A stretch of 64,000 nucleotides of DNA from Blasia pusilla (taxonomy: Eukaryota). Position 1 is the stretch's first letter. Every line of letters starts with the position of its first letter. The stretch lies in assembly GCA_050084515.1 (NCBI GenBank), contig CM114271.1:558001-622000 (forward strand), in the 5' to 3' direction. A program made the position numbers and the translations under genes. The notes beneath the pieces are model-generated. The model was not told the origin of the DNA, made no database searches, and saw only the letters and a program-made list of their open reading frames with translations. Shown in pieces: positions 3,167 to 41,228 of the stretch.

Positions 3167-3213
3167 AAGGAGTGCCATATCCTCGCTTTAAAGGAGTGCC
3201 ATATCCTCGCTTT
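3167..3213. repeat. 24-bp tandem duplication
   Basis: aaggagtgccatatcctcgcttt occurs twice head-to-tail. Confidence 0.9.
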
Positions 3214-4052
3214 GCGAAGTACAGGCAGAGCTCCCACAATAAAGTGCCCTCAGAACCAGTTCACACACTAGACTACGGGTCAAGAGTCCAGGGGTTAACA
3301 AGTCCCCTCACGCATATTATCTCATGCGCGTATGAAAGTTAAATCGTTCTTCAAATGCACTTTGCACAGCTTGACGAAGTGATTTCACGACAAGACCACT
3401 GTTTGGCAGGAAAATTGACAGTACTTTACGTATATCACCTTCTCCTTTAATCCCTGGTAGCTAGTGGCCAGATCCTGTGCGTAGAATGCAAATCCACTCA
3501 GTTGAATGCCCATGCAGGCAGAGTGACAAAAGCCCGTCATAGTTGGTCATGAGAGCTGCGAAACTGCACAGAATAGTAGCACGGAATGACTCAGCGTACA
3601 GATTCCCCCCTATTTTGAGCCTCGAAAATGACATGCAAGGCAAGAAAACGACAGAGAACCACACCAACGGAGGCAGATGCATCTTTAAGGACAGATTTCA
3701 GCCAAAACTACGGAACTTCTCAAAAAACTTAAGTGTGCATAGATGTGTGCACACGAGGAGTCTTACAGAGGAGTGGTAAGACAGAAGAGTATTGAGATTA
3801 CTAACAAAGATTACATACTCAGGGCCACTACTCCCACTGGACAGATCGGGTCAGTTGCCTACACTAAGCTACGAATGATAGTGGCCGTCACCCCTCTCCC
3901 CCTTCCAAAATAAATGAGAACTTCTGTAGAAAATGATGTACCCCACGGGCTGCCCGCGGCTGGCAGCCAAGAACAATGCGTGTCATTACAAGGGTACTCT
4001 TGCGAAGGGCAACCTGCCCCTAAAGCTACAAAATGACTGCAGCCCAACCCCA

Positions 4053-6604
4053 TTACGTACGGGCCCTTTTGTTGCTGCACGATGGACATTTGTAATGTTT
4101 AATATGCTCTGCTCTTGCCGGCGTAATCTTCACACATTTGCCGTGGAACCACTTCTCACAGCTATCACATCCTATCCAAAATTCGTCGGCTGTGTAGTTT
4201 CCTCCACAGCTTCCACAAAATGTATCCCCATGCTCTTCGTCATCCTCTTCCAAAGTCTCCTCTTCCTCTTTAGGAGGGGGTGGAAGAGGCTTTGAAGGCT
4301 TGGCCTGCACTGGAGCTTCTCGCTGCTGGGACAGACAACATACACGTGGTCAAGAAGAAGGGTAAGTATTTAGAGGTTTACCCATTCTTTCTGTGAAGAC
4401 CGGAATTCCGGTGTACAATAAATTTCTGGCAGTAGAATTGGAAAACCTTTGGAGGACCTGGGAAGAAGCACTTTCATACTGATGAATTATTGGAAACGAT
4501 GTAGTCCGCTGTACGAGGAATTGTGACAACGAAGTACAGCTGACAATCCACTCATTATGCACTTGAACAACTTAGATCCAACAGAGAAAAAATCGTTACA
4601 GTGACCAACCATAACAGACTATTACCACGACCAACAAACAGGCACCCGTGAGCAAACTCTTAAAGATTCTCAGAGGTAGAATTTGAGATCCGCAATTTCC
4701 CACATGACAGACGCATATTCGGGTAAACGATTTTCCAGCTCCAATTCACATTGCATCTGGAGTACGGGGAGCTCACCACTTTGGAGCCAGTGGACTTCGC
4801 CTTGTTACCACCTCCAGTGTTATTGACGCTCGTCTTCTCTTTCACTGGCTTCTTTCCAGTGACTACGTCAAATACTGTTGGCAGCTCATTGATCATATTA
4901 AAGAGTCGTTTCCTGAAAGGTCGATCGAATATGATTTCAGCATAAGTAAACTACGAAATACTTGGAGGACATGCAAACAACTCAATTTGACACTCCAAGG
5001 AAATTCCGATGCTATCAAAATCTACATGACCCAAATGAGTATTCTTCCGACCATAGAGGAGCCCAATCATTTACGAAAACGTGGAGGTCAGCCAGGTCAT
5101 GTTTCAACGGCAACGTCCAAAATGAGAAAAGTATCATCTCGGAGGATGAGACGCCGTAACTTCCTCTCCATCCAGGTTTATCTCGGAATCACGATGTGAA
5201 GGATACAAATGCGGATAGAACTTAAGACTGTGAGACTGTCAAAAAGCTGATCAAGGTGTATACTGACATTCCATGCGGCTTCAAGTACTTCGAAGAAGGA
5301 AACTGGATCTCACATCTGACTACTATACAAAAATGGCACTAGTTTGTCGGCGAGTAGAATGCGACCAGCCTCCCAAACTAGTCGGACGATTAAGCATCTA
5401 CATACCCGAAACAAGGACTAATCCATCTATAACTGCTCGGTTCAGTTCAGTTTGCGTTGCCTTCTCGATGGCAGTGACCAAATTTGGAAAGAGTGCCAGG
5501 ACCAAAGTTGGTCGCAGTGCACCCATGTATCCGCAAAAAGGGGGAAGGCGGACCTTCATTTGTGCAGGAGTTAACACAACAACATTTGGATTTAGGCTGT
5601 ACAAAAAGTTCCATTTCTGGTTCTCGGCGAGGTTAGCTAACGGCGTCGTATTCGCATAAAAGGAGCTCATCAAGGTTGTGCGCCAAGGCGTAGGCACGAG
5701 CCGATGCTGACCTTTCATTCTTATCAAGCCGGGCACCGTAAAAATAAGAGACGGCAAGAAGCCAAGCATCACTGTGGACGGCCACTAGTGATAGCCAATC
5801 CTTCCGCAACATGCCATCTCTCGCAAAGTTGATCCCAAGTGCGGGCTCTGGGAGCTCCGGAGGAACCTCTTCCGAGGGCAAGTTAACTTCCCAACCTTCA
5901 TCCGGAAAGCCGTAGAGACACAGATTCTCTTTCTCTGCACAAAGATGTCACATTATACGTCGGTCACGACCAAAGAAGATACCGTGGGAGCTAAGCAACA
6001 TTCTGGCAACGGAAGAGTCGCTCGAAAGGACTCCTCCCGGAAACCTAAACATGACAACACGAAGAAAATTTCCAACTACAAAAACTAGTGAAATCGGATG
6101 CCAACCTGGATCGCACTGGAGGAAGAATTCCTCCACATCTGCACAGAACCGAAGCCAAGGTAGATATCAGTTTCCAGCGAACAATTGTCGGACAGAGACC
6201 ACAACTGACAGCCTCACGGACGACTCCCACACTCAACGCCAGACCACCTCCAAGGCCTCGAGACAATCAGCCCGAGACCTTTAAATTCTCGCCGCAGTTG
6301 AAGTCGCCTCGACGGTTGGACGGCGCAGTGGTACATGAGAAACGAAGCCTTCATCAATTGGTAGGAACGCAGATCAGCGAAAAAGAGAGCGTCGAAGCGA
6401 CTAGTACTTAATGCCTAGGGGAGAACGATCAAGAATAACTCCTGGGAGAGAGTTGCAGGCACGAGGTAAGAAGCAAAACGAGGCGCCTCCGTTTCAACAC
6501 TTACCGGAAGTCAAGGCCTTGAGCATTCCTGCCCGCCGACCTTTGAAATCCTTGAAGACTTCTTCGACAGAACGAGGGTCAGTGGACATCGACCCTCCCT
6601 CCAT
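4053..6604 (-). CDS. AL: Alfin-like PHD-finger protein (~254 aa). Exons 6604-6505, 6138-6106, 5934-5712, 4912-4777, 4325-4053
   Basis: Spliced translation [55 protein letters not shown]...[18 protein letters not shown]...[15 protein letters not shown] (Alfin/PAL domain) and a C-terminal [50 protein letters not shown]. All introns are GT-AG and the phases are consistent. Confidence 0.95.
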
Positions 6605-12281: not shown

Positions 12282-15134
12282 TCGCGCCTCGCGGATATAC
12301 TGGTTCTAACAAAAGGAGGAAATGCGAGGGTCGACACAAACATGTGGAGGTAAATGGTTTGAAGAGAGGAGAAACACGTCTCATTGTTATAGACGGGGAA
12401 GTAGATGGATCCCAAGTTAGAGTGTTGATTGATCCTGGGGCAACAGAAAACTTCCTTTCAAGAGCCATAGCTACGAAATTGGGCTTAGCTTTAGAGAGGG
12501 ATCAAAAAGAAGAGGTAGAATTACCAAACGGGCAAACAGAAAAGATTGAGAAGCTTCCTCGAAGGTTAGAGTTGAGGATAGGAAAGTATCTGGAAGAGTT
12601 GGAGATGAAGGTCATTAGGTTAGCACGTTATGATGTTATCTTGGGAATGCCTTGGATGGAACACTATAATCCAGAGGTAGATTTGAGAAAAAATATTGTG
12701 AAGACCCGAGAGTGGAAGCTTTACGGAGACAGAGTCAGATCACGTCCTAGAACCCTACCCCTATATGTAATAGGAAAAACCGCCATCAAACATCAAGATG
12801 TATGTTTCCTAGGTTTAATAAGAGATGTTTATAGTTTGAAAAAATATTCAGAGGTACCAGACGAGTTGAGAGAAGTATTGGAGGAATACAAAGATGTATT
12901 CCCAAATGATTTACCATCAGGGTTACCACCCAAACGGAGGGTAGACCACAAGATTGAGATCCTTCTAGGAAGCACACCACCATGTAAAGCTCTTTACCGC
13001 TTAGCTCCAAGAGAATTAGAAGAATGCAAAGCCCAAGTGGAGGAGATGTTGCAGAAAGGCTTCATCCAACCAAGCGTCTCGCCATATAGAGCCCCTGTCC
13101 TTTTTGTGAAAAAGAAGGATGGAAGCATGCGATTGTGTATCGACTATCGAGCACTGAATCAACAAACAGTCAAAAAAAAATATCCATTACCAAGAATGGA
13201 TGATTTGTTCGACCAACTACAAGGAGCAAAATACTTCACCAAACTTGACCTTCGTAGCGGCTACAACCAAATTCGAATTGCGGATGAAGATGTGCACAAG
13301 ACTGCTTTTTGTACTAGATGTTTCAGGTACTAGCATTGGAGGAGTACTACAACAAGAATGGGAGGATGGATGGCATCCTATTGCCTTCTTTTCTCGCAAG
13401 CTATTGCCAGCGGAGCAAAACTACTATACAACTGAGCGAGAAGAACTTGCTATTGTGTTGGCAACCAAGCATTGGAAACATTACTTGGGGAATAAGGAGT
13501 TTGTGGTGGAGACTGATCACAAGCCCTTGGTCTACTTAGAGTCCCAGGAAGAGCTCTCCAAACGTCAAATTCGATGGGCAGAATGGCGACAACAATTCAT
13601 GATGAAAATTATCTATGTGGAAGGAAAGAAGCAGTTGGAAAACGCCTTGACTCGCATACCACAGATGATTAACATATCTGAAGTGGAGATAGTTGGTGGA
13701 AAAAGTTATCCAAAGCCACAAAGGAGGATGAAGAAATTGTAGTGTCTATTCATGCCAACAGAGTATACAAGGCTCAAGGATTGGTTTTCCATAAAGGTAA
13801 AGTATGGATCCCACAAGATACACAATTACGTACTGAAGTATTGTCTGAAGCTCACGACACAGTCATTGCGGGTCATATGGGAGATGAAAAAACCTTAGAG
13901 GGAGTACAACGAGCGTACTATTGGCCCAAAATGAGAGAAGATGTTGACATATATGTAAGGAGTTGTAGGATTTGTCAACAAATCAAGGCTAGTTACACAA
14001 AACCAGCAGGATTATTGCAGCCGATCCCAATATCTAAAAAACGTTGGGAATAAGTCACTATGGATCTTGTTTGTGAGCTACCATGTACGATCACGGGATA
14101 TGACTCTATTGTGGTCTTTGTGGATAGACTAAGCAAGATGATAAACCTTCGTCCGACCAAGAAGACTGTGACTGCACCAGAGTTGGCTAGGATCACCATC
14201 CAGACAGTCTTTGTCCATCATGGTCTTCCTAAAGTGCGTATCACTGATAGGGAAACCCATTTCACGATTTTATTTTGGAAGGCTTTATTCCGATTACTCC
14301 AAACTAAAATAGCCATATGTACGGCTTATCACCCTCAAACTGATGGAAAAATTTGAAAGGGCCAACCGTACCATCGAGGATATGCTACGCGCCTTAACAT
14401 TGGAGGATCAACAAGGATGGGACTCATTGTTACCCTTAGTAGAGTTCTCATACAATAACTCCATGAACTCTTCCACTAAGGCCACACCGTTCTTTTTAAT
14501 GCATGGCGAGCATCCCTCAATTCCTTCTAGTCTCACTCGAATAGGGAAAAATCCGAGGGAATCTACAAAGGTAGCTGTAGTTAATGAGTTTGTGGACCAA
14601 ATTCAGAAAAGGGGTTCAACTTGCTAAGGAGAAGTTTGCTATTGCCCAAAATCGACAAAAAAACATGCAGATACTCATTGTCGATTTTTTTGAAGGGGAC
14701 AAGGTTTGGTTAGCAAAAAACAATTTATCATAAGTAGGAGTTCGTAAGCTTAATCCTCACTATATTGGGCCTTTCACTATCCTACAAAAGTGGGCGCTGT
14801 GGCGTATAACTTAGACCTACCAATGCATATAAAAATCCATTATGTATTTCATGTCTCTCTTCTTCGACCGTTTATTCCACACCCTAAGAGATTTAAGGAT
14901 AATATTGTCACTCCACCACTACCTCAAATAGTCGGAGATCATGAAGAATTTGAAGTGGAACGTATCTTGAAGAAACGCATTCGAGGAGCTCATCACCAAC
15001 GAGTTGAATATTTGGTCCAATGGAAAGGATATCCACTATTTGAGGCCACATGGGAACCCTCAGCCAACTTGGCGAACGCACCATTAATAGTGCAAGAGTT
15101 TGAAAGTTCTCAAAACGAGGACGTTGTGTCTTAA
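12260..15134 (+). pseudogene. pol: pol (protease, truncated RT, RNase H, integrase, chromodomain) with frameshifts and stops
   Basis: LIDPGAT protease; [10 protein letters not shown] and [23 protein letters not shown] RNase H; HHCC and YHPQTDG integrase; C-terminal chromodomain EFEVERIL...EYLVQWKGYPLFEATWEP. Confidence 0.9.
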
Positions 15135-26600: not shown

Positions 26601-26779
26601 TTGGATTCAACATGCATGATTTGGGTTGGTTGATTGATCGAGAGATTAATATAATTTGGCTTGTGACACAAGTATTTTTCAAGGACCTTATAAGTAGATT
26701 GATATGGATAGGCCCTTTGATTTAGGATAGGAGTTAAGATTTGGCTTAGCCAAGACTAATGGGGGACATTGCATGGAAA

Positions 26780-26900
26780 ACATGCATCTATTAGAGTCAT
26801 GCTCGTCAAGAAGGATATATATGCAAATTGGATAGATGCGCGTGGACTATCAACCTAATAATCAACAAATAAAGGTCATCGGTATGCTATACCTACCCTA
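26780..26900 (+). pseudogene. Short fossil RT fragment related to the DNMT-bearing element
   Basis: gtcatgctcgtcaagaaggatatatatgcaaattgg...cggtatgctatacctacc aligns with 37800-37912. Confidence 0.65.
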
Positions 26901-28130: not shown

Positions 28131-29579
28131 GAGTGAATTTCGAAGGTAACCTTTGGATTCCAACGCATGACTCATTTCTTGGATCTCAGTTAGGGACTCA
28201 TGTGAGGTCTGTTGGAAAGTTGGGATCGCCAGGCATGCGAACATAGTTTTAGGTGCCTAGACTATCCATAAACGTGGCCTTAAGTCTAGGAAGACTTGCC
28301 CCTGTTGGGAAGTAAGGAGTTAGGACCTATTGATCTTGATGAATGGCCAAAGTTGAGAACTCAGGGACTTAGGAAGGTTGGTTAACTCAAACCAAGACTA
28401 ATGAGAATGTGTTTGGGTACATATCAGCAAAGTGAGCGTGACTTATTGAACATACACTTCCCCAACATCTGAGACTGACGTTGAGGAGATGATATTGTGA
28501 CCCTTGATCCAAACTATTATTTAAAATTTTTAGGACTCGTTACAAGACTTTAGATTATGCATTTTTTTGCATATTGGAATTGGCTTCTTAGAAGCTTTCC
28601 AACGATAACTTATTCATCCCAAGCACATTTTGGCTATAACATTCATTACCGAAAATGTGGAGAATCCCCAAACACTGAATCAACTTCCAAGCTAGGTTGC
28701 AATTTATTTATAGGCTAAACTCTTGTGGGACTTTAATTCTCTTAAGTTCCATCTAGTGTTCGATTGTGCTCTTCTAAGTCATTATTTGCTTCGTTGAAGA
28801 TATCCATCGAGGCTCGTATCTTACTTTTATAATTCATGCATCGTTCATGACATTCTAACGAGTTCTCATCCTAGTATGATCCCATTAGATTTATGATATT
28901 TAACATTGATGCATGTTTGGTTATGAGGGTTAGGACACCTAAGGAGATCCTTTCATATTTTTGGGCATTTCAAGATATCTATTTCAATGGATCTGGGAAT
29001 TGGATACTATAATCTACCTATTAGATTGGAGGACATCTAAAATATGATATTTTGGGGCTTTGATCTTCAATGGAAAGATAGTTTGTACAAGCATACCATT
29101 TGGGTTGAAGAATAACTAGAATAAAGTTTGAAGGATCATAAATAATATTTTAATAAGTTTGAATTTTGGTAAGCATGATATTGATGATATCATAAGCTTC
29201 AATGTCATGGTTTAGGAATATTAACATCTCATGTAAATGTTTTTACAAATGAAGTTACATCTCGATGGGCAAGTTTTTCTTGCCATTAAATTTAATATTT
29301 TTAATTTCCATACATCTCATGGTTAAAGAGATCAATGAATGAGACTAGTTTGTCTCATCCATGCCCTGACCATATGAGCCCAATCTAGTTTCTACTACAC
29401 ATTCAATATGAAACTCTTTCTTCTTACACTTATTTTTTAACATTTTCTTCTTGCCAAGTCTTGTAGAGTGCAATTTCTCTTAAAGACTTTCAATGCACAT
29501 TTCCATACAAAAAATAATTTCCTACATATACTTTGTGTTCATTGTAGTATGTAGTTTGCATTGTGTACAATGGAACATG

Positions 29580-30068
29580 TGTAACGTCTTTTAGGAAAGA
29601 TCGGTGAGATCTAGTAGAGCGCCTTTGCAAGTAGTGGAGGGCACGCTTACGAGGTCGAGGATGACATGTTGAGGCCCCAGGAAACTTGAGAGAGCAGGTT
29701 TCCCCTTCGTTTTGGCTCTTTTGGAGCCATATTGAGAAACTTACTATATGGTCAAAGTTGGCTATATGGTCAACTTTATATTTTAGGAAGTGTCTCTTGA
29801 CCTCCTGCATGAGGTCAAGAGTGAAGGAGGTCACTTGAGAGCACATGTTACCATGAAGAGAGCTTGGGAGAGGGGAGCGGTATACCTTAAGGAGAGAGAT
29901 GTTGAGTTCTCTCTTTGTTGAACCTCTTGACACGAGGTAGCCGAGCTATGGTCCCTTGTCTTGTGAGTGTCATCCAAGCCTCTCATTAAGAGATTTGGTT
30001 TGGTTTGACATTGAGAGAGACATGTGAGAGTGCACACATGTGAGAGTTATGGTGTTGCGAGAAATATT
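29580..30068 (+). repeat. LTR-like repeat family A, 5' segment
   Basis: Starts tgtaacg; similar to 40870-41220, 52438-52990 and (reverse) 53232-53720. Confidence 0.75.
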
Positions 30069-31671
30069 TCACCTTATTTAAAAAGAAGAGAATGAGAGGG
30101 TGAGAGAGCTTGATGGGGCAACTCGTTGGTTGCTCAATGTTTGATGCAGGTTGGGGACCGTGTTCCCCGCTTCATGGCTCATGGGAGTACTTACGGAAGC
30201 AAGAGCCATGCTATTTTGACGTTTGTGTGTCAATTTTTTGTGTGAGAGAATAGCGCACGCAAGCGCTGCCCAATTTTTGATAGGGATTGAATATGGGGGT
30301 GGCTTGCCCCATTCCGGTGCTCTCAAGAGCACCATGTTGCTTGCTGATTTTTATTTTCATAGGTTTTACTTTTTTGTTGGGAGAAATCAACACGGAAGCG
30401 TTGCCAAAATTTATGTAGGAGAAGAGACATTGGGATTTACAACAGTCCATGTCAATTTTTATTGGAAGTTTCGATTCAAAATATGTTTTGGTGTAATTGT
30501 AGATCTTGAAGTTGTGCATGCTGTGCAATAAACAATGCGCAATTTGGAAATACGAGCAGAAAGTTATGGCCAATTTTGCAAAATTGTCATTGTTAGGCGA
30601 TTTTTAGGGTAAAATTGTTCAAACCCTAAACCAGCCGGCGCGTCGGCGACGGCTGTCACCTTCAATGGTCCGCCATCAACAATCAACAGTCCGCCGTCGA
30701 TGGTCCATTGTTACCATCAACGTTCCATCATTTTCATCCGCCGTCGACCTTCGACCGCCGCTGCCGCCTACCGCCGCTCAAAGCCGCGTTCGGCCATTGT
30801 TCGCTGTTGGTTGCCATTGCCACCATTATGGAGTGGACAGTCTTCCACGACGACCGTTGATTCTTTGAATCGTGCCGCCACCATATACTTTGTTGTGCTC
30901 ACCACTGTCATCATAGTTTTGTCATCAATGAGTGATGGTAGGTGACATGGAGTTAAGGTGTTTGAGTTTTAAGGCTATGTTGTGATTGGTAGCCACTCAA
31001 CAACGATCGAGTACCATGCCGTGATGCCCGTTGCCGCAATGCATTTCTGATTTCCGCGCCATACCCCTCGTGGCTGCACCGTACCGTTTCGATCGCGGAT
31101 CCGCTCCTTCACTAAGGAGTAGAGCGTGTGTATTGCTGATTGAGGAGGGTATGCCGCGGAGTTCCGCATCCCATTATCAAGTGTCGTGCCATTCTTTAGG
31201 TGTTTCGTGCCACCAGTGCCACACCGTATTGCTGCATGCGCATCGCATATTGAGGAGGTTTGAGCAGCATCAGTAGGAGAGGAGTATCATTTGCTGATTG
31301 GACGAGTTATCTTCACGACCGAGTTGGATCCAAGATTTTCAGTTGCCGAGGAGCGATATCGACATTTGTTTAAGTTACCCATTCTGTTCCGTTTACCCTG
31401 CATGTGCGAGGGAATTCCGAGTGTTGGGCAATTATTTGGGGATATTGGGTTTCGTGCAGATGTTGAGAGTATCATTGATGTATGGGTTTAGGGGATATAG
31501 ACCTGTGTGGGATGTCCAGACTTGAGGGTATGCCCTCTCGATGAGATGATTGGATGGTATCCGATTCTCGCACCACGCTGCCGCACATCACATGTTTCAG
31601 TGAGAGAGTGTAGATTGAGTGCCGCATGGTAGATTGAGTGATTGATTGATTACGCGTGAGATTGAGAGTGA

Positions 31672-34600
31672 TTGTGTGAGAGGGGCACGAGGGTCTTCAC
31701 GGCGTTCTTTCGAGATTTTGAGAGACGAGGTAGTGGACCTGAGAGTAGGTCTGGATGGTTTACCCACAGTGGTGCGAGGTTTCGAGGGTCTCCACATGAG
31801 AGACCACCTCAATCTCCTTCTGTGTCATCTTCAGACAAGGGGAAGCCTCTAGAGGAGTATGTTAGTGATCCGCCCTACACATTGAGTGGTCCTACAGTTG
31901 GGCGTACGAGATGGACAACCGGGGTAGAGGACCGTGTAGGTTTTTGGGTGCTGTAAGCACTATAGAGCTACACGACTTCATTGCGTAATTTAGGAGTTGG
32001 TGTGACTCACAGCGGGCTAGGAAATCTAGAGAGTCAAACCCGTTTATAGCATGGAACAGTATGTTCGAGCATTTAGAGGGGGCGCCCATGGACGATAACC
32101 ATGAGTTCTCCCACAGATATGCCCACGAGTTTGAGGCACGGCAACTCTACTATGACCCACACTATGTGTCATGGACAGAGCCATTACCAGACGAGGAGGA
32201 GGAGTCAAGAGAGGCTACTTCCTCTTCCACTAGTGATGTTTTAGGAGGGGTCACTTGAACTCGAGAAGTTGCACCGTCCAGTCGGGTGCGTCCTCGGTTC
32301 AACCCCATGGTTGAGTTTTTTGTTGAGATGCGGGCGAGCTACCGGGGGGTATGCACGGAGAAGTTGCGGAGCATCCACGACTTCCAGAGGCGTCCGGGTG
32401 AGAGTTTGCGTGAGGCTTACACTCGCTTGCATCGGTTGATCAACGTCACTCAAGGGGTGATAGAGGCTCAAGTGTCACATCTTATTTCGACTTAGGTAGA
32501 GTTCTATCGCGTCGACGGCATAGAGAGTCAATGGGCTATTCGGGTGTAACTTCATCCTGGGATGTCGGATGAGGTTGGCAACATGTTTTTTTTGTCATGA
32601 ACATTGTTTATGGAATTTTCCCTATTTTGGTTTTTGTCCGTCAGATGATTTGTTGACCAAGTCAACGGTCATCCGATAACTTATGCACGGAGGTTATCGT
32701 TTGGAGGGCTATTTTTGGGGGAAGAGCCTTTTGGCTCTTTCCAAGGGTATAAGAGGAAGAGAGATGGCTTTCTCAAGCCATCTTTCTCATGTTGAGCCTT
32801 AGGAGTGCCTCTCTTGCATAGACGTGTGTGGGTGTGTAGGAAGTTAGGGTGCTAGCGTTCGGATTCCCTCATAGCAAAGGCTGGATGTGGTTTGATATGC
32901 CAATGTAGATTCATGAGTGGAGTTTTAGGCCGGGTAAGCCGTTTTTACTACTCTTGATTTTACATGAGAAAGATTGGAGCCTCTATGTAGTAGGAGAGAT
33001 TTTGCCACTTGGTGTTTTCGAGCGTGGAGGGGATTCACGACCGAAGTTGGTCGACTTGCTAGTACTTTGGCGATAGGGGCTGAGATGAGTGTTCCATGCA
33101 AAGAGGTTGCGGTGGACTGCGAGAGGTGGAGACACACATGCTAATGCCAATGGGTAGTTCGCATCTGTTGACGGGAGGATTGACTTGTTGTGCAAGGAGA
33201 TGGTGGTGTTGCTGAAGTTGCTTTACCACATGGAGGAGTGAGTGTTGATGGTACGGTTGGTTGGAGGGCGTGATCAGGTTACCCATTCGAGTCCCTTTTC
33301 CCGCACTTGTCTCGTGTTATTGAGGGAGCTGGGTATCGGCTAGTAATTGGTGCAAGGTGGGTGTAGCGATGGTGGTGAGTGTATCATGTTTGTGGATATA
33401 TGGCGGTTGCTGAATAGGGGTCGCGTGTATGACCCGAGAGTATGTTTATGACTTAGGTGAGTTAGTCGGGAGGCTCCTTGTGAGCCTAAGTGTTGAGTGT
33501 GCGTGAGGCCGGGATTTTTCATCACGGGATTACCATTAGCGTAGGTGTGTGGGAGACTCTTGGTGAGTCTGAGAGCTTGAGCGAGTGAGACAGGGTTATC
33601 ATCACGGTGTTCTTCCAGGGTTCGGAAGAACGGGGTAGTACGAGAAGTGGTAGTGGAGTGACACAAAGTGGTGTGAGGTATCAAGGGTTTTGTGCGAGGA
33701 ACCACCCCGACTTCCATCCATGGCTGGATCGTCATCACTAGACAACGGGTCTAGTGACAAGATCGCCGACGGGGACGGTTATACGTGGAGAGAGATGGAT
33801 GACATGGGCCACGGCGGCATGTGTCGTTTCTCCAGTGCAAAAAGCACCATAGATTTAGATGATTTCATCAAAGAGTTCGACATGTGGTGTGACTTCCAGG
33901 AGATACTGACCCTTACGTGGTTCAACCCTTTTATGGCATGGAAGGGGTTGTTCCAGCTCTTACACGGTTCGCCAATGGATGATTAGATGGAGTTCCAATC
34001 TCTATACTTTGTAGAGATCGATGCCTAGAGGGTGTATTGGGCTCCAGGGTATGTGTCCACTAGTGACAACGAGGCGTATGATGGTATAGTGAGGTGTGAC
34101 GTATATGTGTGCTATCTGGAGTTGGGGGGACCCAACTCTCAGCTAGGGGGGCGGTTTTGGGGTCCCTATGTATATGCGTGACTATGTATATGTGTGAATC
34201 TACCCGTATGTTGGGGAAGATTGGTGTTGTGTGGTGTGTATATGTGACCAACAATGTGGGTTGTGTAGGGATGTGTATCCGCATGACACAGACTATCCAC
34301 TCGTGGTATGCAATGCTAGATCAAACCCTGAGGACACGGGTGCGGGAGCGGATGCTTCTTATGAACACCTCCCCTACGTTGAGCGATGTTTTTAGGATCG
34401 CCGAGAACATTAAACGCAATATGGCAGATGAGAGCGTAGCCACCATGGGTTCTAGGCGAGAGCAATCATGATTGCCTGCACGACCATTGTAGTGATATGG
34501 ATTCTAAGATTGGTCTGTGGCACCACGAGCTCAGGGAGAATACCGGGAGGTCGTGCCATAGAGACATGTGCCTTCATATACGGCTCAGCAACAGCCGTAT

Positions 34601-34800
34601 ATGATTATTTTTTGGGCATATGGTGGAGCCCATCACTAGCGCAATTGCACTCGTCAAGGTCATGGATGCGCGCCTCAGCCTGTAGGAGGAGATGGTGCTG
34701 CACCAGGAGGTTATCAGCGTGACTTTTGTCAGAGGTACGGTCATACTTGTGCCAAGTCTTCCAGTTTACACCCTAGGTTACGTCCGGACCAAGGGCTAGA
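31672..34800 (+). pseudogene. gag: gag of the DNMT-bearing element, interrupted by a nested insertion (32473-34288)
   Basis: ...FQRRPGESLREAYTRLHRLINVTQGVIEAQ | QTIHSWYAMLDQTLR rejoins in frame once the insert is removed; degenerate zinc knuckle RDFCQRYGHTCAKSSSLHP at ~34718-34775. Confidence 0.7.
32473..34288 (+). mobile_element. Nested, internally deleted family-B retroelement with a gag fragment
   Basis: tgtca...tgaca termini; flanks caag/caga; gag-like 33590-34060 (IDLDDFIKEFDMWCD...NPFMAWKGLFQLLHGSPMDD) is paralogous to 31950-32100. Confidence 0.7.
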
Positions 34801-35681
34801 GAGGGCACCAGAGCGAGTTTCCGGTCCGTGTGGGCTTATAGGTCGGGCGGTGGTCTCGTTGGGGGATGAGGAGCTGGAGTTTCCTGAGGGGTTGATGGAG
34901 TTGCCCGTGGAGGAGGTAGAGTTCCACCAGCTAGACGCGTCAAGGGAGACGCAAGGTGTGAGGCTAGGGTGGCTGCTAAGAAACAACAGCTACAGTAGTA
35001 GATGCCATTATGACACTCACGTTACCCGATGCCGGATCGGTGGCATCGACGTCTTATGGAGCATCCAAAGACATGGAGGATCTTGGTTGGATGTTCGTTG
35101 CCCACATGGAGGCCGCCGTAGTTGTTACGCGTGGAGCAGCCGTAGAGTTGGATCCACAACGAGGGGCAACAAGGAAACACACTAGGCTTCCTGAGTCTTT
35201 AACGTTATCCAAGGCGATGAGGACACCATCGATGGATCGTAATCCGACTTTCCGAAGAGTTGGTGATGTTGTTGGTGTGCAGGCACGGAGGGCGATGGGA
35301 GAAGCGAGTGTGACAACTGCTAGTGCTCATGATCATGAGGAGCAAGTGTCGAGCATGTTGTTGGGGACGGCCACTATTGTGTACTGGGCTCCTTTATTTT
35401 CTCCTTCCGATGTTAAGACGTTGGGAGGTACACCAGTCGAGGTTTTCCGGCTCGCCGCTAGGCTATGTGAGCGTAAAGTTGTAGTTCTTGCATCACGTTC
35501 AGAGGTGATTGCATAGGAGGTAATGGACCTGCCCTTGGAGTAGATGCTTGGGCCGTCCACGTCAAATTCATGGCAGGCTACGGCTGCTAGGATGGCGGGG
35601 ATGCTTGCTAGACCCGCAATAGAGCGTGCCATGGCTTCTCCTAGTGTTGTGTTGCTGGATAACCAGGGAGAGGTCTTCTAG

Positions 35682-36040
35682 TTGGTGAGTCCAGGAGATA
35701 GAGCTTTTAGTCTGCAACGCATCTTGTTGGATTTAGGAGCACAACCCCTAATGTTGGGGAAAGCGACATTAAGAGATTTGGGCGTGACGAGGGCCGATGT
35801 GGAGCGTTGTCCATTCAGGATACATACATCCTTGGATGGAGCGAATACCACACAATATATCACCCGACAGAGGTTGTGGTGAGGTTTTGCCCGCAACATC
35901 CTACAAATGAGTCAGTGGTGCGAGCCAAGGCGATAGTGACCAATGTAGAGTCCTACGACGTCTTGGTTGGTGGAGAAGTGTTGTACCCGATGGGATTCTC
36001 CTTCGATTATGGGGAGGAGTCAGAATCCTACATACCAAGA
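35682..36040 (+). pseudogene. Retroviral-type aspartic protease domain
   Basis: RILLDLGAQPLMLG (degenerate D-[ST]-G-A) and downstream YDVLVGGEVL motif. Confidence 0.7.
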
Positions 36041-36278
36041 TGGTAGACCTTTCTGTGGAGAGGAGTATCATGGTAGCCGCATCATTCCGTGGAGGAAAGG
36101 TGTCGCTTTGGGGCTCGACTAAGGAGCTTCGACGCTTAGCCGCTGAGCATGTGCAGACCGCGTGGAGCAAGATGTTTGCGCTAGGGCATGATGTGTCAGA
36201 GGAACCCAAGGTAGCCAAGAGTGCTACTATGACCCCTTTGGACATCACCCGATTCTGTGGTGCATTCCAAAGGAGGGT

Positions 36279-37190
36279 ATGCGCGTGCTAAATTTATTTG
36301 GCGGGATTAACACTGGTTTAGATGCTGTTTTGCAGGCTAGAGGCAAAACAAAGATTGATGATGTTGTGAGGCGCGCTTCACTTCACCATGTGGCGCAATT
36401 ATGCCTCCGGTTTTCCGACTTGTTGTCTACGTCCGTTGTCCAGGGATACCAGAGTTCCCTACCGAGGGATATTTCATTGCTGAGGGCACAAGACTTGGAG
36501 CGGGTAGGGACCATAGACTTGGTCATTGCTCGTTGGCCGTGTTAGGGCCAATCAAGTGTTGGAGGAGATAGGGGTTAACAAACTCTCAGTCCATGTTTTT
36601 TTGGGAGATGATGCGGATCTTGCGACATTTACACGAGCATCAGTCTCGTTCTCCAACATACATTCTGGAGAATGTGCCATTTTTGGTGATTCGAGGTCCC
36701 GCGTGGTGACGAATGCACATAAGGTGCGTACATGGATCGGTCCGTCAGAGTTGTTGGATGCGGCGAGTGTAGGTTCACAAGCACATCGCCCGCGGCTTTG
36801 GTGGACCAACTTGGTGCCATATGAGGTTTTGCGGAGGGCGTATGTGAGAGTGGAGCGTCCCTCCCATTTGTTGGTGGATTCTATTCTGGATCCATGTCGT
36901 CAATCATAGGCAGTGACTGTGGTCAACAAGATTGACATGCCGCAAGCAGACTTTCCCACATTGGTGAGTTTTCTTGCTTCCTATGCATTCAAGGAGGCCG
37001 GACCAGGCTTGGTTTGGGATGACCAAGTATAGCGGTTGGTGGAGCCCAACGTCGATGAGCTAGAGCAAGCGATGGGATTCCCCAAAGGAGTGACGGTTGT
37101 ACCGTCACTATCAGAGGCATCACGACATCCTATCTTGGGTCAAGCGATGGACCTAAATTGCTTGAAATGGATTTTCAGCTTAGGAGAAGC
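36279..37190 (+). pseudogene. DNMT3-like C5 cytosine methyltransferase domain within pol
   Basis: Motif I VLNLFGGINTG; IV IDLVIARWPC*G; V FFWEMMRIL; VI YILENVP (36668-36676); VIII LDAASVGSQAHRPRLWWTNL; IX ELEQAMGFP; X RHPILGQAM. The motifs are in canonical order across frameshifts. Confidence 0.88.
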
Positions 37191-37689
37191 TAAGCAGCGT
37201 CGTTTGCGGATGCGACAGATCATTGTTGTTGCGTTGGTGAAACCCATGCCTGTCGAGACGATTGAGGTAGTGGCTGGGGGTGAGACCCGAGGAGATTGAC
37301 ATACAAAGGATGATCGGGAGAGACACCCTTGGATTTCTTGGGATGTTTTACAGGTACGCCATAAGATTGTAGCCACAACATTGAGCGTGGTGCCAAAAAC
37401 TGCACATGGAAATTCAATTTTGCAGTTGGCTGTAGGGGACCAGTCGAGTTATGTTGTCCGAGACAGGGTTGCACCATAGCAACCACCTACACTAGCGCCA
37501 AAGAGTCCTATCGTAGTCACGATGGAGACTTGGGAGGCACATATGGGCCCAAAGTTGACAGGAGGAGAGCGGCGCCGGATACATCAGTTCCCAAGGAGTT
37601 ATAGGAGCTATTTTGCATTTAGTATGCATGTTTTGAGTACATTGAAGGATCCAAGGATCCGCATGGAGTTGTCGAGTGACAGGCTGATC

Positions 37690-38940
37690 TTCCAATGACC
37701 CTAGAGTGATATGGAGAGGGCTCTGATTCAGAGTAGGAGCCAGGACTTGGTTGGAGCAGGACTATTGGAGATGTCGCATGGAGAGTATGTATCTGCCACT
37801 GTCATGCCCGCCAAGAAGGATGTGCATGGCAACTGGACGGACATGCGGATGTGTGGAGATTACCGACCTATCAATCGGCAGACAAAGTCCGATAGGTATG
37901 CCATGCCCACTCCTGGGGAGATCTTTGATACTATTGGGCATGCAAAGGTCTTCAGTTCTTTAGATCTTCAAGCCGGATACCATCAGTTGCATATCACATT
38001 GGAGTTTTGGGGCATCGATACTCACGGGAAGGATTGCTTGTACCAGTTGCGGTTCTTACCATTTGGGTTAAAGAACACTCCAATTGAGTTTCAGAGGGTC
38101 ATGGATAGGATCTTGGCAGGTCTGGATTTTGCTAGGTGTTATATTGATGACATCGTAGTCTTTAGCGCCAAGGTTTAGGAGCATGAGCGACATCTAGAGG
38201 AGGTGTTTCGACGATTGCAGTAACATTGGCTGAAGCTACATCCAAGCAAGTGCAAGTTCTTCTACGACCAGATTGAGTACTTAAGTCATACGATATACCC
38301 AGGGGGCCTTGGTGTGCAGCAGACAAAGATAGAGGCTATTTCAAGCATTCCACGCCCTACAGATGTGAGTTGAGTTCGTGTACTCATGGGATTGGCAAAC
38401 TTCTATCGACGGTACGTCAAAGGTTTCAGTTCGATTGAGAAGCCGCTAACCTTGCTGAGCAAGGTGGATCAGGAGTGGCACTGGGGGGATCAGGAGGAGA
38501 GAGCATTTTAGTTGCTCAAGGATAGATTGACGTCCGCGCCCATATTGAGGAGATCGATCAGGGGGCGTCTTTTCCAATTGCATACTGATTGGAGCATGTT
38601 GGGGCTTAGAGCCGTGCTCACCTAGCATGGCAATGATGGTAGAGAGTTTATGGTGGCTTACGCTAGTCGCTTAAACAACACTGCAGAGGCGAAGTATAGC
38701 TTGTGTGAGGGTGAATGCTTGGCTGCAGTGTGGGTTGTTGCACATTTCAGATGTTATCTATTCGGAAATCCCTTTACCATCATTATTGATCATCTGCCAC
38801 TTAAGTGGTTGATGAAGTCCGACAAGCTTACAGGGAAGCTTGCGAGGTGGGCTCTTATGTTGCACGAGTACGACTTCCAAGTGATACATAGACCTGGGAC
38901 GCGCAACTAAGATGCAGATGGTTTGAGTCGTAACCCATAC
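37690..38940 (+). pseudogene. pol: Reverse transcriptase and RNase H
   Basis: RMCGDYRPIN, LDLQAGYHQ, LPFGLKN, YIDD (38140-38151); HTDWS, EGECLAAVW, IIDH, LARWAL; many stops. Confidence 0.92.
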
Positions 38941-39299
38941 TCGAGTCAGCGAGATGCAATTGGAGCTCGATGGCATGGAGAGAGTGATGAGGAGTTGGTG
39001 CCAAGATGACACGCGTCAGCCTATTTGGGCTTCTTGGCTATGGAGAGCCAGATTGCTGGGACCTCGATGGCGAGGTTTGATGGAGAGTCCTTAGATCCAG
39101 AGGCCGGTGAGGGGGCAAAGATATTCACGGCGATGGAGTAGTCTTGGAGTACCTGCGTACTGGCAGCGTCGCGAGCAAAGTGGGTGCCAGAGACCGGGAT
39201 CAGATCCTACAGCGAGCTAGACGGTTCCCGAGGGAGGGGACACATGTGTTGCGAGTGTGGGAGGATGGCAGAGTGCATGCAGTGCCTCATCCTTCGTAG

Positions 39300-40380
39300 A
39301 GAGCACGTTTTTTGCGTCATGCCCACGAGGAGTTGTGTCATTTTGGAGTGAAGCAGACGTACAACTTGCTCAAGATTCAGTATTGATGGTGAGGTATGCA
39401 AACTGATGTTCAGTAGTTTGTTGCCAAGTGCATGGTGTGTGATCGAGTCCGGGCATGGTTCAATGCTCCGATTCCATAGTTGCATCCACTTCCAATCATG
39501 GGTTTAGGTTAAAGATGGAGTTTGGATTTTGCAGGACCTTTACCTTTGACGAAGCGCCATAGTCGTTATGTGTTGGTGATGCTTTAGCACTTCTCCAAGT
39601 GGATAGGGTTGGTTGCATTGTCTGACAAAACGAGTGAGGGAGTAGCGTATGCCTTCCTAGATCGGATGCTGAGTCATTACGGCGCACCCGGTGAGGTGTT
39701 GATAGACCAGGGTACAGAGTTCCGTGCGGAGTTTCAGGCCTTGTGTGATCAGGCACTGATAGACCACCGCACTACTTCGCGAGATCATCCTGAGGCGGAT
39801 GGACTAGCAAAGCAGGTTGTGCAAACGGTGAAGAGGATTACGCAAGTATGGCTTGTAGAGAGGTCACCTAGGAGATTGGGACCTTCAGTTGCCCTGATTG
39901 GCGATGAGATACAGATTCAGCATAAAGGTATCCTTAGCGTCTTACTCAATGTACTTGCTTTTGTATGGCCAAGAGCCAGATTTACCCGCGCCGATTCGTC
40001 GAGATGTTGGTGAGGTGTTGAACCTTGATGACCCTGATGTATGGAAACGAGCATGTTCTTATAGGGCTGAATTGTTTCGGAGAGTGATGCCCATGACGTT
40101 TGAGAACTTGGCGATTGCGTTGTATCGGGATACATTGAGGTAGCGACTATTCAGGGAAGTGGTTATCAACCTACTATCCGGAGGTTTCATCAGGGAAATT
40201 ATGTTTATTTGCAGCAGACAACACCCATGACGTTGGATGTGACTGCAGGGCGCACCATCTTGAGAGTGCGTGAGGTTTTGCCATTAGGTGTTCTCTTATT
40301 GGAGGGACGCGATGGTATGGTTTGGAAGGATCATGTGCGTAACTGTGCGCCGTGTCACCTTCCAAACATTGACGGTACAG
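39300..40380 (+). pseudogene. Integrase
   Basis: HHCC (HEELCH...CMVC), LDFAGP, DQGTEF, HPEADGLAKQ. Confidence 0.88.
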
Positions 40381-40418
40381 TTGATCCAAGCTTAGCAGTA
40401 GTTTATGTAAGCTTGCGA

Positions 40419-40559
40419 TGTATGTTGTGTGGTTCTGCCCGTGGTGCAACCACGATGCTAGTCTGTGATGGATGTTCGAGAGGATGACATATGGCATGTT
40501 TGACGCCATCTCTCACTAGGGTTCCTCAGTAATGATGGATGTGTCCGAGATGTACATAG
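40419..40559 (+). pseudogene. PHD finger at the integrase C-terminus
   Basis: CMLCGSARGATTMLVCDGCSRG*HMACLTPSLTRVPQ**WMCPRC, a complete C4HC3 pattern in one frame. Confidence 0.85.
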
Positions 40560-40869
40560 CGTAGGTAGTTATACTTTCCGACTTGTGTCTGTGGCATGGA
40601 TGACAAGAAGGCGACTAACGACGAGGCCGCATGAGCACCCGACCTTCTTGCTCTTAGCGTCCGGGAGATGTATGTCATGGTAGATAGGGATAGATGGTTA
40701 TCTGGAGTTAGAGGGACATAACCACCAACTAGAAGGGCAATTGGAGATATTTTGGTACTTCTTGTTTTGTTTCTTGGATGCCATGAATTAGCATGAGATT
40801 GTGCGTGTTTGTGTGTGTGTTCGATGACAACGATGCATGTTACATAGCGATATATATGCACACAATAAT

Positions 40870-41228
40870 TATCACATCTTTTAGAATAGATCATTGTGAT
40901 CTAGTAGAGTACAATCACGAGTAGTAGAGGACAGACTCAGGAAGTCGAAGATGATACGTTTCGGCACATTTGAATTCATATTGAAAAGCTTACTATTTTA
41001 GATAATTATCGTTTTGAGTATTTGGTATACTTTCTATTTTAGGAAGTGGCCCTTGACCCGGTGTAGGAGGTCAAGGAGTTGACTTGCAAACACATGTTAC
41101 CATGGAGAGAACTTGGACGAGGGGAAGGATATACTTCAATGAGAAAAAGTTGAGAACTCATGATCTCTTTGTTGAATCTTTTCACACGAGACGGCGGAAT
41201 TATGATCCCTTGTCTTATCAATATAACA
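40870..41228 (+). repeat. Diverged family-A 5'-segment copy
   Basis: tatcacatcttttag...gatctagtagag...cacatgttaccatg...tcccttgtctt matches 29580-29962 with many differences. Confidence 0.7.

What the first reader, a model, noticed from the sequence alone, without database searches (positions are those of the whole stretch)
40419..40559. PHD finger on the integrase tail of the same element: a reader-plus-writer retrotransposon
Seen: a full C4HC3 pattern (CMLC...LVCDGC...HMAC...WMCPRC) in frame after the integrase C-terminus, where chromoviruses carry a chromodomain. Knowledge: the L-x-C-D-x-C...H-x-x-C-L-x-P-x-L-x-x-V-P...W-x-C-P-x-C pattern resembles PHDs that bind unmethylated H3 tails (AIRE/BHC80/CHD4 type) more than aromatic-cage H3K4me3 readers such as the Alfin PHD in this window. 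Animal DNMT3 uses an H3K4me0-reading ADD domain. Inference: the element may steer integration to H3K4-unmethylated chromatin and methylate itself there, a self-contained epigenetic module.
Basis: partly seen in the sequence, partly recalled or inferred. Interest (0 to 1): 0.8.

Follow-up and report, generated by a model that had tools for sequence, protein, structure and literature searches.

The report
PHD finger on dead retrotransposon integrase
A long-dead jumping gene in this window ends its integrase with a genuine histone-reading PHD finger and also carries the remains of a DNA methyltransferase, a pairing that intact relatives across green algae and mosses keep, although what the finger binds has not been tested.

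Summary
Window 40419-40553 (+) encodes a C4HC3 PHD finger (Pfam PF00628, 45.8 bits against a cut-off of 24) at the very end of a Ty3/gypsy pol.

This copy is dead. Its LTRs are about 77% alike. The pol region has 21 stops and 3 frameshifts, and three of the stops lie inside the finger.

Intact relatives keep the finger as the last module of the integrase:
- 56 of 56 testable metagenome loci have it.
- 137 of the best 150 cluster representatives have it.
- dN/dS is 0.06 between two intact copies.

A DNMT3-like domain travels with it in 27 of 27 loci where both could be tested, and in 131 of 137 database proteins. A few relatives have the finger and no room for a DNMT.

The finger's nearest solved structures are readers of the unmodified H3 tail (CHD4, KDM5 PHD1, ATXR5, BHC80, BAZ2A/B, UHRF1, AIRE). 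The host's own Alfin-type PHD in this window matches H3K4me3 readers instead.

So this is a decayed member of the published Gypsy-DNMT3 kind. I did not find the PHD, or its pairing with the DNMT, discussed in print. Steering of integration to H3K4-unmethylated chromatin is plausible by analogy with chromoviruses, but it is untested.

The parts
29584..29962 (+). 5' LTR (approximate ends)
   Evidence: Direct repeat with 40874-41216. 253 of 330 aligned bases are identical, with 44 transitions and 33 transversions.
31887..32516 (+). gag-like remnant
   Evidence: tblastn to the N-terminal part of ORF1 of intact relative L001 (23% over 242 aa, E 1.6e-7, 3 stops) and to P0052 and P0064.
35037..36043 (+). 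Aspartic protease remnant, in two frames
   Evidence: tblastn to the protease regions of P0064, P0057, P0052 and L001 ORF1. Pfam finds no family here at E<=0.01.
36087..37209 (+). DNMT3-like cytosine methyltransferase remnant, spread over three frames
   Evidence: tblastn to the PF00145-positive regions of P0064 (E 3e-50), L001 ORF1 (E 1.3e-62), P0011 and P0045. The pieces themselves give no Pfam hit at E<=0.01.
37498..39129 (+). Reverse transcriptase and RNase H (frame 1, 9 stops)
   Evidence: Pfam RVT_1 81.5 bits and RT_RNaseH 99.2 bits. 59% identical to P0002 over 533 aa.
39111..39836 (+). Integrase zinc domain and catalytic core (frame 3, 7 stops)
   Evidence: Pfam Integrase_H2C2 and rve. 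63% identical to P0002.
39832..40140 (+). Integrase C-terminal domain, read in frame 1 (two frameshifts against its flanks, 2 stops)
   Evidence: tblastn 62% over 103 aa to P0002 residues 787-889 in frame 1, while both flanks read in frame 3.
40134..40418 (+). Last part of the integrase tail, contiguous and in frame with the PHD
   Evidence: Part of the 141-aa match (63%) to P0002 residues 888-1028, frame 3.
40419..40559 (+). PHD finger (C4HC3; 3 internal stops), one more codon and a TAG
   Evidence: Pfam PF00628 45.8 bits. PDB matches to CHD4, DPF2/3, KMT2C/D, KDM5A/B PHD1, ATXR5, PHF21A, AIRE and others.
40874..41216 (+). 3' LTR (approximate ends)
   Evidence: Direct repeat with 29584-29962.

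Best explanation
The stretch is the C-terminal PHD finger of the pol polyprotein of an old, inactivated Ty3/gypsy LTR retrotransposon of about 11.6 kb (about 29584-41216). Its domain order is gag, protease, DNMT3-like methyltransferase, RT, RNase H, integrase, PHD.

Shown:
- The finger is a conserved module, under purifying selection, that ends the integrase in a large clade of green-lineage gypsy elements.
- Most of these elements also encode a DNMT3-like domain.
- The finger belongs to the PHD class that lacks an aromatic cage. Its nearest solved members bind the unmodified H3 N-terminus.

Inferred:
- In live relatives the finger tethers the integrase-cDNA complex to nucleosomes whose H3 tails are not methylated at K4. 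This would bias insertion away from active promoters, as the chromodomain of chromoviruses biases insertion towards H3K9-methylated chromatin.
- The element's DNMT acts separately, on the cDNA or the new copy.

In this window the copy does nothing: it is a relic.
For: Identity of the copy:
- Pfam finds RVT_1, RT_RNaseH, Integrase_H2C2, rve and PHD in the expected order.
- Domain-by-domain tblastn to intact relatives, including the DNMT region, agrees.
- The LTR pair is present.
- The nearest rows in the tree are P0002 and P0003, then L001, L007 and P0005 (local support 98), then P0012, which carries both DNMT and PHD (99) (FastTree).

Conservation of the finger:
- 45 of 54 long relatives of the integrase-PHD read-through carry PF00628.
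- In the ORF2-type relatives the protein ends 2-14 residues after the last Cys.
- 56 of 56 testable loci among 80 metagenome loci have it.
- 137 of the best 150 representatives have a full C4HC3. There are 381 clusters at E<=1e-30 among 1.84 billion proteins.
- All eight ligands are invariant in a 25-sequence alignment with 38-84% identity to its first row.
- dN/dS between L001 and L007 is 0.063 for the finger and 0.054 for RT through PHD.

Pairing with DNMT:
- 41 of 43 testable loci have the DNMT; 27 of 27 have both where both could be tested.
- 131 of 137 database proteins have both where both could be tested.
- DNMT motifs are conserved at >=80% in both domain orders.
- L001 ORF1 scores 51 bits for PF00145.

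Class of the finger:
- The family profile hits KMT2C/D, CHD4, ATXR5, Lid, KDM5A/B PHD1, WSTF, KAT6A, DPF3, PHF21A, BAZ2A/B, UHRF1 and AIRE. No ING, BPTF, TAF3 or Alfin appears among the best 60 of 94 matches. The window's own stretch gives the same list.
- An AF2 model of the L001 finger (pLDDT 86.9) superposes on ATXR5-H3 (rmsd 0.8), BHC80 (1.0; 49% identity), and on BAZ2A and UHRF1 entries whose titles name the unmodified H3 tail.
- The residue two before the His ligand is Gly in 114 of 137 and Trp in 0 of 137. That a cage Trp sits there in H3K4me3 readers is recalled.
- Control: the host PHD at 4077-4217 (-) has Trp at that position and hits ALFIN-LIKE 1/3, BPTF, PHF2/8 and TAF3.

Position: the finger is at the extreme integrase C-terminus, where chromoviruses carry their targeting chromodomain (Gao et al. 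2008, as cited in passages of PMC6673714).
Against: - No binding, insertion-site or methylation data exist for this family.
- The nearest solved fingers do not all read H3K4me0. By recall, DPF and KAT6 fingers read H3 with K14 acylation, UHRF1 reads H3R2, and some KMT2C/D fingers bind H4.
- The loop between the second Cys and the hydrophobic core is acidic in some subfamilies. In the subfamily nearest the window it is Gly/Ala/Lys/Arg-rich. The contacts for unmethylated K4 are therefore not clearly conserved.
- The insertion lies between CpG-poor stretches (o/e 0.38 at 28-30 kb and 0.35 at 42-44 kb). That fits silent chromatin, but it is one old insertion and says little.
- The loci counted are not independent. 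Several are duplicates and most come from a few sources.
- The protein sets were retrieved with integrase-PHD or DNMT queries, which biases the co-occurrence counts upward.
Confidence: 0.6

Rival explanations
1. The PHD serves the element's methyltransferase rather than the integrase. Like the ADD domain of animal DNMT3, it would read H3K4me0 and direct or license de novo methylation of the new copy.
For: DNMT and PHD travel together in 27 of 27 loci and 131 of 137 proteins where both could be tested. In the second domain order (RT, RNase H, DNMT, integrase, PHD) the DNMT, integrase and PHD are contiguous, and some ORFs start in the DNMT and run through the PHD (P0018, P0021, P0036).
Against: In the window's own domain order the DNMT lies upstream of RT. 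In the closest intact relative it is in ORF1, separated from ORF2 by an in-frame stop. The PHD persists in relatives with no room for a DNMT (P0225, P0210, L032). The DNMT persists without a PHD in P0068, P0075 and P0080.
Confidence: 0.15
2. The finger binds something other than the unmethylated H3K4 tail: another histone state (H3R2, H3K14 acyl, H4), a host chromatin protein, or nucleic acid. It would act as a general nucleosome tether or a stabilising zinc module.
For: The top solved matches include KMT2C/D, DPF2/3, KAT6A/B and UHRF1, whose ligands differ (recalled). The putative K4-contact loop varies among subfamilies.
Against: The fold and the core motif match H3-tail binders closely (rmsd 0.7-1.2 A over 45-48 residues). 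The Asp after the third Cys and the P-x-G-x-W loop are largely conserved. That these contact H3R2 and H3A1 in AIRE and BHC80 is recalled.
Confidence: 0.2
3. The motif is a chance pattern or a captured host exon peculiar to this copy.
For: None beyond the decayed state of the copy.
Against: Pfam E 6e-12. 63% identity over 141 aa to intact relatives. The same finger is at the same place in 56 of 56 testable loci.
Confidence: 0.01

Closest known systems
Gypsy-DNMT3 retrotransposons of streptophytes (KnitGypsy-Dnmt3 of Klebsormidium nitens; de Mendoza et al. 2018, PMC5890265: abstract, section 9 and passages read)
   Same: Both are LTR/gypsy pol with a DNMT3-like domain inside the polyprotein. A K. 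nitens protein (P0049) is a hit with protease, DNMT, RT, RNase H and integrase in the same order. The DNMT motifs are conserved.
   Different: 'PHD' occurs 0 times in the paper's main text. Both K. nitens records retrieved are partial and stop before the position of the finger. P0017, which is 79% identical to P0049, has the finger. The paper describes DIRS-like repeats; here there are plain, decayed direct LTRs. Fig. 4c and the supplements could not be seen and may show the domain.
Chromoviruses (Ty3/gypsy with a chromodomain at the integrase C-terminus; Gao et al. 2008, as cited in PMC6673714 and in preprint 10.1101/2021.11.30.470311, passages read)
   Same: A chromatin-reader domain is fused to the very end of the integrase.
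   Different: Pfam finds no Chromo domain. Targeting has been shown for chromodomains only.
PHD-bearing transposons of green algae: REM1 (Perez-Alegre 2005, not held, known only from citations) and Gypsy-7a_cRei (PMC9940879, passages read)
   Same: Gypsy elements of the green lineage with a PHD finger. Volvocine and Haematococcus proteins are among the relatives found here.
   Different: No DNMT is named in the passages of those descriptions that I read. Whether these elements belong to the clade found here was not tested.
PHD fingers that read the unmodified H3 tail: PHF21A/BHC80, AIRE, CHD4/5, KDM5A/B PHD1, ATXR5, BAZ2A/B, UHRF1
   Same: They are the best sequence and fold matches, and the family has no Trp two residues before the His ligand.
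   Different: Binding is untested. The acidic K4-contact positions are not clearly conserved in the window's subfamily.
EpiLTRs (preprint 10.64898/2026.05.21.726589, passages read)
   Same: LTR retrotransposons that combine DNA methyltransferase domains with a chromatin-targeting reader domain.
   Different: Those elements carry DAM plus a DNMT4-related domain plus a chromodomain, in Euglena and Cymbomonas. Here the parts are a DNMT3-like domain plus a PHD.

Membership tests
PHD finger (Pfam PF00628) | Eight zinc ligands in C4HC3 order with standard spacing | tested here: met
   All eight ligand codons are present at 40419-40553. The three stops lie at other positions.
PHD finger (Pfam PF00628) | Score above Pfam's gathering cut-off | tested here: met
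   45.8 bits alone and 38.6 bits in context, against a cut-off of 24.
PHD finger (Pfam PF00628) | PHD fold | tested here: met
   Tested on the intact relative L001, not on the window's broken copy. AF2 pLDDT 86.9. rmsd 0.7-1.2 A to solved PHD fingers.
Readers of the unmodified H3 tail among PHD fingers | No aromatic cage (no Trp two residues before the His ligand; position recalled) | tested here: met
   Gly in 114 of 137 and Trp in 0 of 137. Gly is invariant in alignment A2.
Readers of the unmodified H3 tail among PHD fingers | Closest solved relatives are of this class | tested here: met
   The control with the host Alfin-type PHD gives the other class.
Readers of the unmodified H3 tail among PHD fingers | Acidic residues that contact unmethylated K4 (positions recalled from AIRE and BHC80) | tested here: inconclusive
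   An Asp lies 3-5 residues before the first Cys in several subfamilies, but not in the window copy. The loop after the second Cys is acidic only in some subfamilies.
Readers of the unmodified H3 tail among PHD fingers | Binding to H3K4me0 that is lost on methylation | not testable with these tools
   Needs peptide binding assays.
Gypsy-DNMT3 retrotransposons | Ty3/gypsy order RT, RNase H, integrase between LTRs | tested here: met
Gypsy-DNMT3 retrotransposons | DNMT3-like C5 methyltransferase domain inside the polyprotein | tested here: met
   Met by homology only. 36087-37209 matches PF00145-positive regions of relatives (E 3e-50 to 1e-62). The window pieces themselves give no Pfam hit at E<=0.01. 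The DNMT3-like nature of the motifs is recalled.
Gypsy-DNMT3 retrotransposons | Common descent with the K. nitens elements | tested here: inconclusive
   P0049 is a hit at 36% identity. In the FastTree tree the K. nitens group lies in the same sampled clade, but the joining branches are weak (82-87).
Chromoviruses | Chromodomain at the integrase C-terminus | tested here: not met
   No Chromo family in Pfam scans of the tail. A PHD is there instead.

The most novel reading that the evidence does not exclude
A large clade of gypsy retrotransposons across green algae, charophytes and mosses carries its own epigenetic kit: a DNMT3-like writer and, on the integrase, a PHD reader of the H3K4-unmethylated tail. 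This is the same logic as the ADD-plus-methyltransferase of animal DNMT3, assembled independently by a parasite. The element would insert into K4-unmethylated chromatin and methylate itself there. The kit has been rearranged at least once: the DNMT lies before RT in one group and between RNase H and integrase in another.
Probability: 0.3. Interest if true: 0.7.

Novelty: new member of a known kind. Interest (0 to 1): 0.5.

Why it matters
Retrotransposons that encode chromatin readers or DNA methyltransferases show how parasites exploit host silencing marks rather than only suffering them. Gypsy-DNMT3 elements are in print for a charophyte, and PHD fingers are in print for Chlamydomonas transposons.

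- The two features sit together in most members of one widespread green-lineage clade.
- The finger is of the class whose solved relatives read the unmodified H3 tail.
- The family reaches a moss-like genome, as dead copies.

The copy in the window has no function.

Tried and rejected
- The window's own genome could not be searched for other copies: none is held.
- Pfam on whole-frame read-throughs and on the two best DNMT pieces of the window found no PF00145 at E<=0.01. The DNMT call rests on homology to PF00145-positive relatives.
- I first thought the family might be the 'Chlamyvir' clade. The papers describe Chlamyvir as chromodomain-bearing chromoviruses, so I dropped that idea.
- The REM1 paper is not held.
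- Whether KnitGypsy-Dnmt3 itself has the finger could not be settled. Both K. nitens records retrieved are partial and end before it.
- The ~320-430 residue tails after the PHD in the second domain order gave no Pfam family.
- LTR ends, target-site duplication, primer-binding site and polypurine tract could not be fixed in LTRs this diverged.
- Earlier notes of this scan held nothing on this genome or on look-alike sequence.
- CpG depletion inside the element is mild (o/e 0.70-0.90) and does not speak to self-methylation.
- Literature searches for the PHD-plus-DNMT pairing found no paper that describes it. Supplements and figures were not visible.

Full report
**The observation**

Window 40419-40553 on the + strand encodes a complete C4HC3 set of zinc ligands. 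One further codon and a TAG follow, ending at 40559. Pfam PF00628 scores 45.8 bits (E 6e-12) on this stretch alone. It scores 38.6 bits inside the 524-residue read-through P0001, which has X at 21 stops and also holds Integrase_H2C2 and rve. The curated cut-off is 24 bits.

A C4HC3 search of all six frames of the window finds this hit and one other, a host PHD at 4077-4217 (-). The finger is real.

Three in-frame stops lie inside it, at non-ligand positions. The finger is contiguous and in frame with the last ~95 residues of the integrase tail. Between the integrase core (39111-39836, frame 3) and that tail (from 40134, frame 3), the homologous reading runs in frame 1 (39832-40140). Two frameshifts therefore lie between core and finger.

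**The element**

Direct repeats at about 29584-29962 and 40874-41216 are the LTRs. Of 330 aligned bases, 253 are identical, with 44 transitions and 33 transversions.

Between the LTRs, Pfam and tblastn against intact relatives give this order:

| Part | Window coordinates |
|---|---|
| gag-like remnant | 31887-32516 |
| protease | 35037-36043 |
| DNMT3-like remnant, in three frames | 36087-37209 |
| RT and RNase H | 37498-39129 |
| integrase | 39111-40418 |
| PHD | 40419-40553 |

Against P0002 the pol region has 21 stops and 3 frameshifts.

The DNMT pieces match PF00145-positive regions of relatives at E 3e-50 to 1e-62. They give no Pfam hit of their own at E<=0.01. This is an old, dead copy. 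No whole genome is held for this window, so other copies in the same genome could not be counted.

**Relatives: the finger is a fixed part of the integrase**

- *Long relatives.* A search of 5.8 billion proteins with the integrase-PHD read-through, restricted to longer proteins, gave 54 hits. PF00628 is on record for 45 of them and PF00145 for 7. In the RT-RNase H-integrase-PHD proteins the ORF ends 2-14 residues after the last Cys.
- *Metagenome loci.* A scan of metagenome contigs with an alignment of 15 such proteins returned 80 loci. 577 of 600 matched stretches encoded relatives. Among the 80 loci, the finger was present in 56 of the 56 that extend far enough downstream.
- *Intact copies.* L001 is intact from protease to PHD. 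L007 and L032 are intact from RT to PHD.
- *Representative clusters.* A search of 1.84 billion representatives with the integrase C-terminal domain plus PHD of L001 gave 381 clusters at E<=1e-30 and 1276 at E<=1e-10. Of the best 150, 137 have a full C4HC3. Several of the other 13 are visibly cut within the finger or before it.
- *Constraint.* All eight ligands are invariant in a 25-sequence alignment whose rows are 38-84% identical to the first. Between the intact copies L001 and L007, dN/dS is 0.063 for the finger and 0.054 for RT through PHD. dS is high, so the ratios are rough.

**Relatives: the methyltransferase**

Of 43 loci with enough upstream sequence, 41 have the DNMT region. L002 and L070 do not. 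In all 27 loci where both features could be tested, both are present.

These loci are not independent. Several are duplicates, most are decayed, and most come from a few sources.

Across 236 database proteins from three searches, two domain orders appear:

| Group | Domain order | With PHD | Cut before the PHD position | Without PHD |
|---|---|---|---|---|
| First order (the window's) | protease, DNMT, RT, RNase H, integrase, PHD | 5 | 9 | 4 |
| ORF1-only proteins of the first order | gag, protease, DNMT | – | 17 | – |
| ORF2-type proteins, upstream unknown | RT, RNase H, integrase, PHD | 39 | 3 | 0 |
| Second order | RT, RNase H, DNMT, integrase, PHD, plus a further ~320-430 residues | 126 | 9 | 2 |

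The other 22 of the 236 proteins fell outside these four groups. Where both features could be tested, 131 of 137 proteins have both. The queries themselves bias this count upward.

Named sources of the second order are chlorophytes: Haematococcus, Tetrabaena, Pleodorina, Volvox, Monoraphidium and Chlamydomonas eustigma. Named sources of the first order or near it are Klebsormidium nitens, Closterium and Sphagnum fallax.

The DNMT motifs are conserved at >=80% in both orders, in 29 and 127 sequences respectively. That these motifs resemble DNMT3 is recalled.

In L001 the DNMT lies in ORF1 (1006-5085; PF00145, 51 bits) and the PHD in ORF2. The two ORFs are in the same frame, with one stop between them.

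The pairing is not obligatory:
- P0225, P0210 and L032 have the finger but no room for a DNMT.
- K. nitens P0159 has a protease-to-RT gap of only 232 residues.
- P0068, P0075 and P0080 have a DNMT and no PHD.

In a FastTree tree of RT, RNase H and integrase (75 rows), the window groups with P0002 and P0003. It then groups with L001, L007 and P0005 (support 98), and then with P0012, which has both DNMT and PHD (support 99). The second order forms one clade (support 99). Deeper branches are weak, and the tree was made by the quick method only.

**What kind of PHD**

- *Sequence.* The family profile against all PDB sequences gives 94 matches. The best 60 are KMT2C/D, CHD4/5, ATXR5, Lid, KDM5A/B/D PHD1, WSTF, KAT6A/B, DPF2/3, PHF21A (BHC80), BAZ2A/B, UHRF1/2, PHF12, ORC1b, AIRE and PHF10. 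No ING, BPTF, TAF3, PHF2/8 or Alfin is among them. The window's own broken stretch gives the same list.
- *Fold.* An AlphaFold2 model of the L001 finger (pLDDT 86.9) superposes on ATXR5 with H3 (rmsd 0.8 A), BHC80 (1.0 A; 49% identity), BAZ2A with the unmodified H3K4 peptide, UHRF1 with the unmodified H3 tail, DPF3, MOZ and CHD4/5.
- *Cage position.* Two residues before the His ligand the family has Gly in 114 of 137 and Trp in 0 of 137. One residue before it has Trp 75, Tyr 35 and Phe 11. By recall, H3K4me3 readers place a cage Trp at the first of these positions.
- *Control.* The host PHD at 4077-4217 (-) has Trp at that position. It matches ALFIN-LIKE 1 and 3 (E about 1e-25), BPTF, CFP1, PHF2, PHF8, DIDO, TAF3 and KDM5A/B.

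One weakness remains. The positions that contact unmethylated K4 in AIRE and BHC80 (recalled) are not clearly acidic in the subfamily nearest the window. Some of the nearest solved fingers also have other ligands (recalled).

**Mechanism**

Shown:
- the identity and decay of the copy;
- the conservation and position of the finger;
- its class by sequence and fold;
- its frequent pairing with a conserved DNMT3-like domain.

Inferred: in live relatives the finger tethers the integrase complex to H3 tails lacking K4 methylation and so biases insertion. This is by analogy with the chromodomain of chromoviruses (Gao et al. 2008, seen only as cited in passages of PMC6673714 and of 10.1101/2021.11.30.470311).

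The idea that the element methylates itself comes from de Mendoza et al. 2018. Their abstract states that retrotransposon DNMTs can methylate CG de novo.

The 'self-contained module' reading is weaker for the window's domain order, because writer and reader lie in different ORFs. It is more natural for the second order, where DNMT, integrase and PHD are contiguous.

The single insertion here lies between CpG-poor stretches (o/e 0.38 and 0.35). That fits silent chromatin but proves nothing.

**What is known**

- Gypsy-DNMT3 elements are published for K. nitens (PMC5890265: section 9 and passages read). 'PHD' does not occur in the main text. The figure and supplements could not be seen.
- The term 'Gypsy-DNMT3' occurs in only one other held paper, a 2026 preprint. 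It lists TE-borne DNMTs as known from Symbiodiniaceae and streptophytes, and it describes LTR elements with DAM, DNMT and a chromodomain.
- PHD fingers are described as common accessory domains of Chlamydomonas transposons, including the gypsy element Gypsy-7a_cRei. They are also described as frequent TE fusions across eukaryotes.
- My searches found no paper that describes the PHD together with the DNMT3 domain, the chlorophyte members, or the two domain orders.
That is the same position as in the second order here. I did not test it.

**Verdict**

The feature in the window is a dead member of a known kind of element. The family-level pairing of a DNMT3-like writer with a reader of the H3K4me0 type is a worthwhile lead that I did not find in print. 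It needs binding and insertion-site data.

Noticed in passing
window 4077-4217 (-): A host PHD finger of the Alfin type, with no stops and a Trp two residues before the His ligand. Its best PDB matches are ALFIN-LIKE 1 and 3 (E about 1e-25), then BPTF, PHF2/8 and TAF3. It served as a control for the class of the element's finger.
   Followed up: partly
window 12860-14347 (+): A second, more distant Ty3/gypsy remnant (RT, RNase H, integrase; 27-46% identical to the same relatives). The motif search found no PHD pattern behind it.
   Followed up: no
window 28951-29203 (+) and 26653-26897 (+): Short RT-like fragments just upstream of the 5' LTR. The region from about 18 to 30 kb is CpG-poor (o/e 0.35-0.48). 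The element therefore sits in repeat-rich, probably methylated DNA.
   Followed up: no
window 33873-34022 (+): A second short match to the same N-terminal (gag-like) part of P0052 that also matches 31908-32471. This may be an internal duplication or a nested fragment.
   Followed up: no
L001 1006-8229: An intact relative has gag-protease-DNMT (ORF1) and RT-RNase H-integrase-PHD (ORF2) in the same frame, separated by one stop codon. That suggests read-through expression, with the DNMT made at gag-like levels.
   Followed up: partly
database proteins such as P0033, P0124, P0135, P0152: In chlorophyte relatives the DNMT-like domain lies between RNase H and integrase, and a further ~320-430 residues with no Pfam family follow the PHD. 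Precomputed Pfam lists miss the DNMT in many of these proteins, although the motifs are conserved.
   Followed up: partly
P0136: A 1974-residue gypsy polyprotein with a PHD is labelled by its source as coming from a bacterial metagenome-assembled genome. It is probably eukaryotic contamination of that bin.
   Followed up: no
alignment A1, columns near P0002 residues 957-964: A nearly invariant short Cys/His-containing motif lies about 20 residues before the PHD in the integrase tail. It might extend the zinc-binding module.
   Followed up: no
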